DNA of 64,000 nt from Eledone cirrhosa (taxonomy: Eukaryota). Position 1 is the stretch's first letter. Each line of letters begins with the position of its first letter. Position numbers and translations under genes: made by a program. The notes below the pieces were generated by a model that saw only the letters and a program-made list of their open reading frames with translations, searched no databases and was not told the origin of the DNA. Where the stretch lies: NCBI GenBank assembly GCA_964016885.1, contig OZ024742.1, positions 189,968,001 to 190,032,000 on the forward strand, written 5' to 3'. This document shows, piece by piece, positions 21,043 to 31,208 of the stretch.

Positions 21043-23258
21043 AAGTTGAAATAAAATGAAAACGAAATTTCATTTCTCACTCTTAGTACGGCACTTACTT
21101 AAATGTAAGTATGTGTGTATACGTACATACATATATGTATACAGACGTACAGTAGCATGCATATATATATATACATATATACATACAGGTACACATACAT
21201 ATATGCACGTATCAGTTTAGCGGACGCTTATTATAACGCCGCTTTGTTCGTTTGTAAACAAACTGAACAGCCTGAATTTTTATGCCGTACGGTGTTAAGG
21301 CAGCCACGTCACCTTTTTGTTCAACACTGACACGGGAACGATGTACTAGTTTCAAGCTTGTTAGCTATCATCAGCACCGTATACCGATCTGCCAGATAGT
21401 TGAACGTTCGAAAGTATATACTTTCCTTATGAAAATTAACGGCTGAGCAGCCTAATTTGCATATCGAGTGAGCTAAGTCGGTCAGGCATACCGAAAACGA
21501 TAAGTTGAAATAAAATGAAAACGAAATTTCATTTCTCACTCTTAGTACGGCACTTACTTAAATGTAAGTATGTGTGTATACGTACATACATATATGTATA
21601 CAGACGTACAGTAGCATGCATATATATATATATATATATATATATACATATATACATACAGGTACACATACATATATGCACGTATCAGTTTAGCAGACGC
21701 TTATTATAACGCCGCTTTGTTCGTTTGTAAACAAACTGAACAGCCTGAATTTTTATGCCGTACGGTGTTAAGGCAACCACGTCACCTTTTTATTCAACAC
21801 TGACACAGGAACGATGTACTAGTTTCAAGCTTGTTAGCTATCATCAGCACCGTATACCATCTGCCAGATAGTTGAACGTTCGAATGCATGCTACTGTACG
21901 TCTGTATACATATATGTATGTACGTATACATACATAGTTACATTTACGTAAGTGCCGTACTAAGAGTGAGAAATGAAATTTCGTTTTCATTTTATTCCAA
22001 CTTATCGTTTTCGGTATGCCTGACCGACTTAGCTCACTCGATATGCAAATTAGGCTGCTCAGCCGTTAATTTTCATAAGGAAATTATATACTTTCGAACG
22101 TTCAACTATCTGGCAGATGGGTATACGGTGCTGATGATAGCTAACAAGCTTGAAACTAGTACATCGTTCCTGTGTCAGTGTTGAACAAAAAGGTGACGTA
22201 GTTGCCTTAACACCGTACGGCATAAAAATTCAGGCTGTTCAGTTTGTTTACAAACGAACAAAGCGGCGTTATAATAAGCGTCCGCTAAACTGATACGTGC
22301 ATATATGTATGTGTACCTGTATGTACCTGTATGTATATATATATATATATATATATGCATGCTACTGTACGTCTGTATACATATATGTATGTACGTATAC
22401 ACACATACTTACTTTTAAGTAAGTGCCGTACTAAGAGTGAGAAATGAAATTTCGTTTTCATTTTATTTCAACTTATCGTTTTCGGTATGCCTGACCGACT
22501 TAGCTCACTCGATATGCAAATTAGGCTGCTCAGCCATTAATTTTCATAAGGAAAGTATATACTTTCGAACGTTCAACTATCTGGCAGATGGGTATACGGT
22601 GCTAATGATAGCTAACAAGCTTGAAACTAGTACATCGTTCCTGTGTCAATGTTGAACAAAAAGGTGACGTGGTTGCCTTAACACCGTACGGCATAAAAAT
22701 TCAGGCTGTTCAGTTTGTTTACAAACGAACAAAGCGGCGTTATAATAAGCGTCCGCTAAACTGATACGTGCATATATGTATGTGTACCTGTATGTATATA
22801 TGTATATATATATATATATATATATATATGCATGCTACTGTACGTCTGTATACATATATGTATGTACGTATACACACATACTTACATTTAAGTAAGTGCC
22901 GTACTAAGAGTGAGAAATGAAATTTCGTTTTCATTTTATTACAACTTATCGTTTTCGGTATGCCTGACCGACTTAGCTCACTCGATATGCAAATTTGGCT
23001 GCTCAGCCGTTAATTTTCATAAGGAAATTATATACTTTCGAACGTTCAACTATCTGGCAGATGGGTATACGGTGCTGATGATAGCTAACAAGCTTGAAAC
23101 TAGTACATCGTTCCTGTGTCAGTGTTGAATAAAAAGGTGACGTGATTGCCTTAACACCGTACGGCATAAAAATTCAGGCTGTTCAGTTTGTTTACAAACG
23201 AACAAAGCGGCGTTATAATAAGCGTCCGCTAAACTGATACGTGCATATATGTATGTGT
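21043..23258. mobile_element. Retrozyme-like family A: ~473-bp HHR tandem units, ~1.8 on the minus strand then ~2.9 on the plus strand
   Basis: Period 471-473. Orientation switches at ~21884. One HHR per unit: minus 21339-21379 and 21812-21852; plus 22126-22166, 22597-22637 and 23070-23110. Confidence 0.85.
22126..22166 (+). ncRNA. Minimal type I HHR of family A (representative copy)
   Basis: cggtg CTGATGA tagc-taacaa-gctt GAAA ctaGTA catcg. Palindromic stem III ACTAGT. U-U at the base of stem II. Confidence 0.85.
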
Positions 23259-23807
23259 ACTGGTTACTTTACTGTGAGTATCCAGCTATTCTGTATGTAA
23301 ACACACAGACAAACCGGTTTTTAGAGTCATACTGGTTTTTGAGGAAACACCTTTCCTCTATTCTACAGAAAGCCAGACAAGGAATATTGAACTAGTTTCG
23401 TTGTTGTTACAACTCATCAGCAATATTTACCTATCTACCGGCCTTTCTGGAGAATCGTAAAAGCACATATCGTTATATGCTTTTTCTATGAAAATTAGTA
23501 GTGGGCAGACTAATTTGCATAGAGTGTGAGTACGTACCGGTTCAACGGAGACGATAAAAACAAATAACGAAACGAAATTAAATTTCGTTTCGTTTGTAAC
23601 TCACTTTTGTATGACTGACGCTTAAACAATTAAGTTAAAAATGTATATCCACCGGTTTGTCTGTGTGTTTACATACAGAATAGCTGGATACTCACAGTAA
23701 AGTAACCAGTGAAAGACTTGTACATCTACATATGTATACGTGTGTGTATTCATATGCATACTAGTATTTCAGTATACATATATGGATGTACATTTTTAAC
23801 CTAATTG
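23259..23807 (-). mobile_element. Retrozyme-like family B element with an inverted arm (23651-23807)
   Basis: 23259-23317 is inverted against 23651-23710, and the arm end matches 23627-23650, implying a circularly permuted ~470-bp unit. HHR inside. Confidence 0.8.
23384..23426 (-). ncRNA. Minimal type I HHR, family B (duplicate at 36881-36923)
   Basis: atattg CTGATGA gttg-taacaa-caac GAAA ctaGTT caatat. Confidence 0.9.
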
Positions 23808-26800
23808 TATAAATGTATATATATATATATAAATATATATATAAATATATATATATAAAAATATTTATATATATATATAAAAATATATATATATAAAAAT
23901 ATTTATATATAAAAATATTTATATATATATATATATATATAAATATATATATATAAAAATATTTATATATAAAAATATTTATATATATATATATATATAT
24001 ATATATAAATATATATATATAAAAATATTTATATATATATATATATATATATAAATATATATATATAAAAATATTTATATATATATATATATAAATATAT
24101 ATATATAAAAAAAAAAATATATATTATATATATATATATATATATATATATATATATAAATATATAAATATATAAATATTTATATATATGTATATAAATA
24201 TATATATATAAACATATATATATATAAATATTTATATATATATATATAAATATATATATAGAAACATATATATATATAAATATTTATATATATATATATA
24301 AATATATATATAGAAACATATATATATATATATATATATAAATATTTATATATATATATATAAATATATATATATAAACATATATATATATATATATATT
24401 TAAATATTTATATATATATATATAAATATATATATATAAACATATATATATATATATATATATAAACATATATATATATATATATATAAATATTTATATA
24501 TATATATATAAACATATATATATATATATATATATAAATATTTATATATATATATATAAATATATATATATAAACATATATATATATATATATATATAAA
24601 TATTTATATATATATATATAAATATATATATATATATATAAATATATATATATAAACATATATATATATATATATATATAAATATTTATATATATATATA
24701 TAAATATATATATATAAACATATATATATATATATATATTTATATATATATATATAAATATATATATATATATATATATATATATATAAATATTTATATA
24801 TATATATATAAATATATATATATATATATATATAAATATATATATATAAACATATATATATATATATATATAAACATATATATATAAACATATATATATA
24901 TATATATATAAACATATATATATATATATATATATATAAACATATATATATATATATATATATATATATATATATAAATATTTATATATATATATATAAA
25001 TATATAAACATATATATATATATATATATATATATATATAAATATTTATATATATATATATAAATATATATATATAAACATATAAATATATATATATAAA
25101 CATATATATATATATATATATATATATATAAATATTTATATATATATATATAAACATATATATATATATATATATAAACATATATATATATATATATATA
25201 TATATATAAATATTTATATATATATATATAAACATATATATATATATATATATATATAAATATTTATATATATATATATAAATATTGTTATACTTTGGGA
25301 GGGTCATGTTGCCAATAAATTGGCAACATGACCCTCCCAAAGTATAACAATATCGGTTTCAACACACGGTTTCAGATAAAGAATCTTGCTAAACAAATTC
25401 AGAAACGATATATATAAATATATATATATAAACATATATATATATATATATATATAAATATATATATATATATATATAAATATATATATATATATAAATA
25501 TATATATATATATATATAAATATATATATATATATAAATATATATATATATATATATAAATATATATATATATATAAATATATATATATATATATATAAA
25601 TATATATATATATATAAATATATATATATATATAAATATATATATATATATAAATATATATATATATAAATATATATATATATATAAATATATATATATA
25701 TAAATATATATATATATATAAATATATATATATATAAATATATATATATATATAAATATATATATATATATATATATATAAATATATATATATATATATA
25801 TATATATAAATATATAAATATATATATATATATATAAATATATATATATATATATATATATATAAATATATATATAAATATATATATAAATATATATATA
25901 TATATATATATATATATATATATATATATATATATAAATATATATATATATATATAAATATATATATATATATATATATATAAATATATATATATATATA
26001 TAAATATATATATATATATATATATAAATATATATATATATATATATATATATATAAATATATATATATATATATAAATATATATATATATATATATAAA
26101 TATATATATATATATATATATAAATATATATATATATATATATATAAATATATATATAAATATATATATATATATATAAATATATATATATATATATATA
26201 TATATAAATATATATATATATATATATAAATATATATATATAAATATATATATATAAATATATATATATATATATATATATATATATAAATATATATATA
26301 TATATATATATATATATATAAGTATATATATATATATATATATATAAATATATATATAAATATATATATATATATATAAATATAAAATATATATATATAT
26401 ATATAAATATAAATATATATATATATATATATATATATAAATATATATATAAATATATATATATATATAAATATATATATATATATATATATATAAATAT
26501 ATATATATATAAATATATATATAAATATATATATATATATAAATATATATATATATATATATATATAAATATATATATATATAAATATATATATATATAT
26601 AAATATATATATATATAAATATATATATATATGTAAATATATATATATATATATAAATATATATATATATATATAAATATATATATATATATATATATAA
26701 ATATATATATAAATAAATATATATATATATATATAAATATATATATAAATAAATATATATATATAAATATATATATAAATAAATATATTTATATATATAA

Positions 26801-30194: not shown

Positions 30195-30328
30195 TAGATA
30201 AATCTACCAAGAGTTTACGGTAGTGTCCAATCCGTATGAAGAACTCAATGTATTCCGGATATCATGGAAAGAAGAGATGTAATGAAAATCCAATTTCGGT
30301 GAAAGATAAACGGTATACAGAGTCAAGA
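30195..30328. repeat. Terminal remnant of the repeat family also seen at 60320-60450 (duplicate at 43118-43252)
   Basis: Shared gataaatctaccaa..tacggtagtgtccaatccgtatgaagaactcaatgta..cagagtcaagata. Confidence 0.75.
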
Positions 30329-30545
30329 TATATATATATAAATATATATATATATAAATATATATATATATATATAAATATAAATATATATATATATATA
30401 TATATATATATATAAATATATATATATAAATATATATATATATAAATATATATATATATAAATATATATATATATATATATAAATATATATATATAAATA
30501 TATATATATATAAATATATATATATATATATAAATATATATATAT

Positions 30546-31208
30546 AAAAACAAATAACGAAACGAAATTAAATTTCGTTTCGCTTCTAACTCACTTTTGT
30601 ATGACTGACGCTTAAACAATTAAGTTAAAGTGTACATCTACATATGTATACGGAAGTATTAGTATGCATATAAATACACACATGTATACATATGTACATG
30701 TACTCAGCTTTTCACTAGACACTTTACAGTGAGTGTCAGCTAGTCTGTATGTAACCACACAGAAGGACCGGGTTTTAGAGTCATACGGGTTTTCAAGGAA
30801 ACACATTTCCTCTATTCTCCAGAGGGCCAGACAGGAATATTGGACTAGTTTCGATGTTATTACATCTCATCAGCAATATTTACCCATCTTCCGGCTTCTC
30901 TGGAGAATTGTAAAAGCACATATCGTTATATGCTTTTTCTATGAAAATTAGTAGTGGGTAGACTAATTTGCATAGAACGTGAGTCATTGTACGCACCGGT
31001 TCAGCGGAAACGATAAAAACAAATAACGAAACGAAATATATATATTTATATATAATATAAGACTGTGTGGTTACATACAGACTAGCTGACACTCACTGTA
31101 AAGTGTCTAGTCAAAAGCTGAGTACATGTACATATGTATACATGTGTGTATTTATATGCATACTAATACTTCCGTATACATATGTAGATGTACACTTTAA
31201 CTTAATTG
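30546..31208 (-). mobile_element. Retrozyme-like family B' element: one 469-bp unit with terminal redundancy plus an inverted arm (31063-31208) (duplicate at 43467-44129)
   Basis: aaaaacaaataacgaaacgaaat at 30546 and 31015. The arm is the reverse complement of ~30617-30762. 71-nt unpaired tail. Confidence 0.85.
30837..30879 (-). ncRNA. Minimal type I HHR, family B' (duplicate at 43758-43800)
   Basis: atattg CTGATGA gatg-taataa-catc GAAA ctaGTC caatat. Fully canonical. Confidence 0.92.

What the first reader, a model, noticed from the sequence alone, without database searches (positions are those of the whole stretch)
21043..31208. Two diverged ~470-nt HHR RNA families (A and B/B') keep the same fold by covariation
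Seen: unit lengths 473 and 469, the same module order and an equivalent 3' end. HHR stem II covaries (GTTG/CAAC, GATG/CATC, AGC/GCT) around a conserved TAAYAA loop, and stem III ACTAGT is shared. Stem I differs but still pairs (cggtg/catcg versus atattg/caatat). A long-range helix is GTACGGCA/TGCCGTAC in A and GTATGACT/AGTCATAC in B. Inference: selection on RNA structure in a non-coding replicon somewhat larger than typical metazoan retrozymes.
Basis: partly seen in the sequence, partly recalled or inferred. Interest (0 to 1): 0.75.

Follow-up and report, generated by a model that had tools for sequence, protein, structure and literature searches.

The report
Sister retrozyme families sharing one fold
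Two related non-coding repeats of about 470 bases, each carrying a self-cutting-RNA motif, have spread to thousands of places in this animal genome and have kept part of a predicted RNA fold while their sequences drifted 40% apart, likely because a Penelope-type jumping-gene enzyme copies them from a folded, probably circular RNA.

Summary
A (471-473 nt) and B/B' (466-469 nt) are homologous end to end (61% identity), non-coding, with one type I hammerhead per unit. Compensatory pairs occur outside the ribozyme: 4 vs 0.8-1.2 expected in B (84 insertions) and 6 vs 1.7-2.1 in A (38). The long-range helix appears in four paired sequence states. Base-for-base covariation between A and B over the whole unit was not significant, so 'same fold by covariation' is shown only helix by helix. 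The size is within the published retrozyme range. Insertions are back-to-back arms in (TA)n ending at two fixed RNA sites, the Penelope 'tail' footprint. Coding Hydra-type elements here show the same design. None of 158 sampled insertions carries a co-oriented ORF. A>G (editing-like) changes are shared by all units of an insertion, often in both arms, which favours reverse transcription round a single-unit, probably circular RNA; some arrays are mosaics. No RNA data were available. Verdict: new members of the animal non-LTR retrozymes. This scan reported the same insertion design before on other DNA of this genome.

The parts
21041..21884 (-). Family A, left arm (1.8 units); RNA-sense 3' end at fixed site P1 (monomer 317) against (TA)n; hammerheads at 21847-21823 and 21374-21350
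21884..23260 (+). Family A, right arm (2.9 units); hammerheads 22131-22155, 22602-22626 (damaged core), 23075-23099; cut short at monomer 155 and fused tail-to-tail with B (likely a deletion)
22686..22693 (+). 5' strand of the long-range helix in A (GTACGGCA)
22897..22904 (+). 3' strand of the long-range helix in A (TGCCGTAC), lying between the two priming sites P2 (monomer ~258) and P1 (317)
23259..23652 (-). Family B, left arm (partial; outer end lost); hammerhead 23420-23396
23651..23812 (+). Family B, right arm ending at P2 (monomer ~233) against (TA)n
30544..31037 (-). Family B', left arm (1.05 units) ending at P1 (monomer 299) against (TA)n; hammerhead 30873-30849
30779..30786 (-). 5' strand of the long-range helix in B' (GTATGACT)
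30599..30606 (-). 3' strand of the long-range helix in B' (AGTCATAC)
31063..31212 (+). Family B', right arm ending at P2 (monomer 230) against (TA)n
35804..44133 (.). Second copy of the A/B/B' block (97-99% identical), beside an N gap; not independent insertions
8547..13411 (+). Coding Penelope-like element with Hydra-clade marks (RWR, DKT, CxCX5C, C-terminal GIY-YIG; RT and EN in different frames), same two-armed, two-end design in (TA)n; kind of element proposed as the mobiliser

Best explanation
A and B/B' are two sister families of non-coding, hammerhead-bearing repeats inserted in (TA)n as back-to-back arms with two fixed outer ends; they are likely copied by a Hydra-type Penelope enzyme from a folded, probably circular single-unit RNA whose stems are under selection. 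Steps: (1) inferred: an array is transcribed, and the hammerheads, whose palindromic stem III suits dimer activity, cut out monomers that are ligated to circles; (2) inferred from A>G scars: the RNA is partly double-stranded and edited in cells; (3) ends shown, enzyme inferred: the Penelope protein cuts (TA)n on both strands and primes at two internal sites, P2 in the loop of a small CTTA/TAAG hairpin and P1 59-74 nt further on; (4) shown: both cDNA arms run through the ribozyme cut site for variable lengths and meet at a random inner junction; (5) inferred: variants that break stems are passed on less often, so helices such as the long-range one next to the priming region persist while sequence drifts.
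For: Homology and fold: 61% identity over 433 columns. Real A and B fold more stably than versions with the differing letters permuted, AT-rich hairpin removed (z -3.8 to -6.1; 0 of 60 in all four A/D-vs-B tests). Within lineages, with a null that keeps real column histories: B 4 double-changed pairs vs 0.75-1.19 (P 0.003-0.03, 84 insertions); A/D 6 vs 1.7-2.1 (P 0.006-0.012, 38 insertions); broken pairs 24 vs 35 and 24 vs 40. Inherited variants break stems less often than post-insertion ones: 11 of 58 vs 101 of 280 in B, P=0.014. Long-range helix: CG/UA/UG at one pair and AU/UA at another within A/D, three swapped pairs between A and B. Ends: second arm stops at P2 in 45 of 48 B and 27 of 42 A fold-backs with the end in view. 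This matches the two RT start sites and both-strand extension shown in vitro for an anole Penelope element (PMC11167929) and two coding Hydra-type families here. Read-through: 67 of 88 B arms cross one cut site and 33 cross two; only 3 of 83 inner ends lie at it. Editing: alleles private to one insertion and present in all its units are A>G 10 vs T>C 2 (B) and 9 vs 0 (A); unit-specific ones 17 vs 17 and 15 vs 19. 5' G neighbour 1 of 42 vs 20 of 101 background in B. The edited motif of L184 occurs at only 4 places in the genome, all in that insertion, in both arms. One chimera joins a B arm ending at P1 to a Hydra-type arm ending at its P2 (L219).
Against: Pair-level covariation between A and B is not above chance in any of 6 cross tests (e.g. 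7 of 24 vs 10.2). A first within-B test on one reference gave 1 vs 1.2. The inherited-vs-later test is not significant in A (4 of 25 vs 49 of 134, P=0.063), nor is the D-to-A permutation (10 of 60). Folding z-scores are not strand-specific: the antisense strand scores better in 3 of 7 units. Private array-wide A>G comes from few insertions (5 vs 2 in B, 3 vs 0 in A; L185 and L145 give 13 of 19). Some wider-shared edits are one inherited haplotype counted several times (L184/L193/L246). Edited sites are not enriched in predicted stems (28 of 42 vs 58 of 101 in B; 4 of 16 vs 51 of 97 in A). Arrays L195, L197 and L196 are mosaics that one circle cannot explain; 5 of 28 arm-wide alleles are absent from the other arm. 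The partner rests on design and one chimera; A/B show no homology to the pLTR regions compared.
Confidence: 0.72

Rival explanations
1. Same element and enzyme, but the template is an uncut linear multimer transcript and long arrays grow later by unequal crossing-over, as Li, Clavereau and Pollet 2026 propose; no circle is needed.
For: Mosaic arrays with recurring variant blocks. In vitro the anole element used unprocessed RNA and did not need ribozyme cleavage (PMC11167929). 8 of 9 Xenopus dimers did not self-cleave.
Against: Edits in a linear multimer should be unit-specific, but unit-specific changes show no A>G excess. Private edits fill every unit of both arms in L184. L223 shares one A>G in all pieces covering the site while its units keep their own later mutations, so arrays are not homogenised.
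Confidence: 0.17
2. The paired changes come from mutation, not selection: editing turns A-U into G-U, and template switching or DNA palindrome repair completes the swaps.
For: Many one-sided changes are A>G into G-U pairs; several swapped pairs lie in short local hairpins; antisense strands also fold well.
Against: Swaps occur in a helix whose strands are 180-210 nt apart, with a U-G intermediate. Post-insertion DNA mutations break stems freely (101 of 280) while inherited ones do so less.
Confidence: 0.07
3. A and B are solo or tandem pLTR pieces shed by coding Penelope elements elsewhere in the genome, with no life of their own.
For: Same hammerhead - P2 - tail - P1 order as coding Hydra-type elements; published link of retrozymes to pLTRs in Xenopus. 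Only 158 of at least 2,667 P1-ended insertions were examined.
Against: 0 of 158 insertions continue into a co-oriented ORF. Arms run back into their own unit up to 12 times or more. After P1 a coding element reaches its start codon in about 80 nt, whereas A/B return to the hammerhead. An ancient pLTR origin stays likely.
Confidence: 0.04

Closest known systems
Metazoan non-LTR retrozymes (Cervera and de la Pena 2020, PMC7229834, parts 2-4 of 6 read; Li, Clavereau and Pollet 2026, bioRxiv 10.64898/2026.07.22.740005, parts 1-3 of 5 read, supplements not seen)
   Same: Type I hammerhead in each unit of short tandem repeats, GC below 50%, non-coding, predicted highly self-paired, thousands of copies, co-occurring with Penelope-like elements.
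   Different: 470 nt is a little above the 170-400 nt RNAs of the 2020 paper but inside the 51-972 bp of the 2026 preprint. The parts read describe neither two-armed insertions with two fixed ends, nor shared editing scars, nor a covariation test outside the ribozyme. Their circles are shown by Northern blot; here no RNA was seen.
Penelope-like element insertions: PAc of the green anole (Frangieh et al. 2024, PMC11167929, parts 1-2 of 4 read); Hydra clade (Craig et al. 2021, PMC8557442, passages and section 11 read)
   Same: Two internal RT start sites bounding a 'tail', extension on both strands, inverted 5'-truncated partner arm, AT-rich or (TA)n target, hammerhead near the end.
   Different: No ORF; tail 59-74 nt instead of 30-40; both arms can be multimers of a closed unit.
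Minimal, dimer-acting metazoan hammerheads (Cervera and de la Pena 2014, PMC4209133, passages read)
   Same: Short palindromic helix III, expected to cut as a dimer in multimers and poorly as a monomer.
   Different: Helix II is short (3-5 bp) and helix I extends into a long rod; activity untested here.

Membership tests
Metazoan non-LTR retrozyme | Type I hammerhead motif in each repeat unit | tested here: met
   one window A unit has a damaged core
Metazoan non-LTR retrozyme | Short head-to-tail units dispersed over many loci | tested here: met
   2,058 exact B end junctions; 609 for A
Metazoan non-LTR retrozyme | Non-coding, GC below 50% | tested here: met
   longest ATG-started frame 64 codons on either strand; GC 0.35-0.38
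Metazoan non-LTR retrozyme | No LTR, PBS or PPT; target duplications longer than 4 bp | tested here: inconclusive
   no LTR-like layout; PBS/PPT not searched; duplications cannot be read inside (TA)n
Metazoan non-LTR retrozyme | Self-cleavage and expression as linear and circular monomer RNA | not testable with these tools
   no RNA holder listed; indirect support only from editing scars
Penelope-type insertion product | Two fixed 3' ends (tail), inverted 5'-truncated arm, (TA)n target | tested here: met
   45 of 48 and 27 of 42 second arms end at P2; loci were picked by the P1 junction, so P2 is the unbiased end
pLTR of a coding Penelope element | Continues into a co-oriented RT/GIY-YIG ORF | tested here: not met
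   0 of 158 insertions; a sample, not a census
pLTR of a coding Penelope element | Sequence homology to the terminal repeat of a coding family | tested here: not met
   five end regions from four coding families held; best hit 22 nt of AT-rich sequence outside the terminal repeat; other families not examined
Viroid-like RNA replicon | Ribozyme in both polarities or signs of RNA-to-RNA copying | tested here: not met
   one hammerhead per unit, one polarity; editing scars on the hammerhead strand only; other ribozyme classes checked only through Rfam

The most novel reading that the evidence does not exclude
These are circular RNA parasites whose conserved core (long-range helix plus the hairpins at P2 and P1) is the structural signal that loads a Hydra-type Penelope RT dimer. 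Two enzymes then run round one edited circle from both sides of a DNA break, so the genome holds a fossil record of rolling-circle retrotransposition and the recognition element can be mapped from covariation.
Probability: 0.45. Interest if true: 0.72.

Novelty: new member of a known kind. Interest (0 to 1): 0.5.

Why it matters
Retrozyme papers propose, without showing it in the parts read, that Penelope enzymes reverse-transcribe the circles, and they leave open which parts of the RNA matter. Two lineages 40% apart that keep particular helices and two priming sites name the mutants to make. Insertions with genome-unique edits in every unit of both arms give a sequence-based test of the circular template.

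Tried and rejected
No RNA holder listed for B'; contigs laid on part of the unit gave no RNA information. One 499-nt contig spanning a unit at depth 2.4 is of unknown kind and was not used. A pile-up of inner ends at the cut site seemed present but was a parsing artefact. RT/EN hits near L026 and L088 are separate insertions across (TA)n. Seventeen loci with other TAAYAA hammerheads showed no RT hit and no real A/B similarity within 1.5 kb. A search for the L219 element's 3' end found nothing, which is uninformative; 29 other copies of that family showed no further A/B chimera. The 310-nt family resembles A/B only at the hammerhead. miRNA-family hits are TA-hairpin noise. The count (8 pairs vs 4.5; 9 of 500) ignores relatedness and was not relied on. 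An octamer-like ATGCAAAT is conserved in A, D and B; a promoter role is recalled speculation, untested. Rows left out: L177 (duplicate of L176) and L126; overlapping loci merged. Paper searches for prior reports; none listed a covariation or editing analysis of animal retrozymes, but the library lacks most subscription journals. R-scape and LocARNA were not available.
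Full report
Observation. The window lies in a 3.0-Gb genome (G000). Between long (TA)n tracts sit A (21041-23260), B (23259-23812) and B' (30544-31212), mapped. The block is repeated at 35804-44133 beside an N gap, so those copies are not independent. The hammerhead pattern occurs 32,353 times genome-wide with 0 control hits, counting the 310-nt and other families too. Exact end junctions give at least 2,058 B-lineage and 609 A insertions. An older A relative, D (~430 nt), and several B subfamilies were recovered.

Homology and fold. 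A and B' align end to end at 61% identity. Independent circular folds give the same order: extended stem I rod, a hairpin, a long-range helix enclosing four hairpins, a junction holding P1, two more hairpins, and the hammerhead. Folding z-scores are -10.1 (A) and -11.1 (B'), but antisense strands also score well and better in 3 of 7 units, so they do not prove RNA function.

Covariation between families. Only 31 pairs coincide exactly between the two folds, 8 changed on both sides: 4 in the ribozyme, 3 in the long-range helix, 1 in a hairpin. Outside the ribozyme, doubly changed pairs were canonical no more often than chance in all 6 cross tests; register errors at 61% identity weaken that test. 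An alignment-tolerant test was positive: permuting the differing letters destabilised the fold in all four A/D-vs-B comparisons (0 of 60 permutations as stable; z -3.8 to -6.1) and for A-to-D, but not for D-to-A.

Covariation within lineages. With a structure folded from the majority sequence and a null that permutes real columns, B showed 4 compensated pairs outside the ribozyme against 0.75-1.19 (84 insertions). A/D showed 6 against 1.7-2.1 (38 insertions), including two pairs of the long-range helix. Broken pairs were fewer than expected in both. An earlier version using one poorly suited reference was negative for B. Variants inherited by three or more insertions broke stems in 11 of 58 cases, post-insertion mutations in 101 of 280 (B, P=0.014); A pointed the same way without significance.

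Insertion anatomy. Of 88 B and 70 A loci picked by the P1 junction, 58 and 43 are fold-backs. The opposite arm ends at a second fixed site, P2, in 45 of 48 and 27 of 42 cases with the end in view; most other A arms were parsed as ending in the internal TA hairpin. Inner ends are scattered, and 3 of 83 and 1 of 68 lie at the cut site. 67 of 88 B arms cross at least one cut site. This is the Penelope footprint: PMC11167929 shows two internal RT start sites and extension of both strands. The coding element at 8547-13411 has the Hydra marks listed in PMC8557442, and it and a second young family have two fixed ends in (TA)n. No sampled A/B arm continues into a co-oriented ORF. L219 joins a B arm ending at P1 to a Hydra-type arm ending at its P2 without a TA spacer, with a short fragment that by eye resembles another RT in between; a deletion between neighbours is not excluded.

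Template. Alleles private to one insertion and present in all its units are mostly A>G on the hammerhead strand (19 vs 2 T>C over both lineages, from 8 vs 2 insertions). Unit-specific alleles are symmetric, 32 vs 36. The neighbour bias in B fits what I recall for ADAR enzymes (5' G in 1 of 42 vs 20 of 101). L184 carries six A>G changes in every unit of both arms. Three belong to a haplotype shared with L193 and L246, but the motif holding the other three exists only in this insertion, four times. That favours copying of one single-unit RNA round and round. Against a single rule: mosaic arrays, 5 of 28 arm-wide alleles missing from the other arm, and no stem enrichment of edited sites. No RNA run was available.

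Comparison and verdict. The units meet the testable criteria for metazoan non-LTR retrozymes (PMC7229834), and their size is within the range in the 2026 preprint. Cleavage and circles are untested. My odds: PLE-inserted retrozyme about 0.92, stems outside the ribozyme under selection about 0.8, single-unit circular template about 0.65, Hydra-type partner about 0.7. Earlier notes of this scan reached the same insertion model on other loci of this genome; my reading was set before that call, and the Hydra lead came from it. What this finding adds is the A-B homology with tested structural constraint. Interest 0.5.

Noticed in passing
window 32112-35603 and 45032-54366: Third hammerhead family, 310-nt units; the second array is two-armed (19 + 11 units), 27 of 28 units checked identical, ends at monomer 139 and 165.
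   Followed up: partly
L219:1300-4240 (G000:C1:78802800-78807400): Chimeric two-armed insertion: a B arm joined without TA to an opposite arm of a young coding Hydra-type element, a short RT-like fragment between.
   Followed up: yes
L178 (G000:C1:56201000-56210000): B' arm joined directly to a ~36-nt opposite arm of another small (TA)n-inserting family; a second possible mixed insertion.
   Followed up: no
window 54731-55090 and 27490-27970: Oversized hammerhead-like motifs; the first matches the 3' end of the coding family in L219.
   Followed up: partly
window 13602-13844, 14821-15033, 25279-25410: Small fold-back element with two fixed ends about 55 nt apart in (TA)n and no hammerhead seen in the copies.
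   Followed up: no
window 2780-5321 and 15650-18630 (minus strand): Two further decayed Penelope-like elements, 42% and 55% identical in RT to the one at 8547-13411.
   Followed up: partly
window 22305-35603 vs 35804-48521: About 13-kb block duplicated at 97-99% across a 200-N gap; possibly an assembly duplication.
   Followed up: no
L145:969-1957: Two A pieces share five A>G changes near the 5' end but differ in further ones, suggesting successive rounds of editing.
   Followed up: no
L324 and L332: Coding Hydra-type copies read through P1 into an ~80-nt leader and the ORF start, defining that family's terminal repeat.
   Followed up: partly
window 62172-62831: 47-bp minisatellite, 14 copies at 97%.
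   Followed up: no
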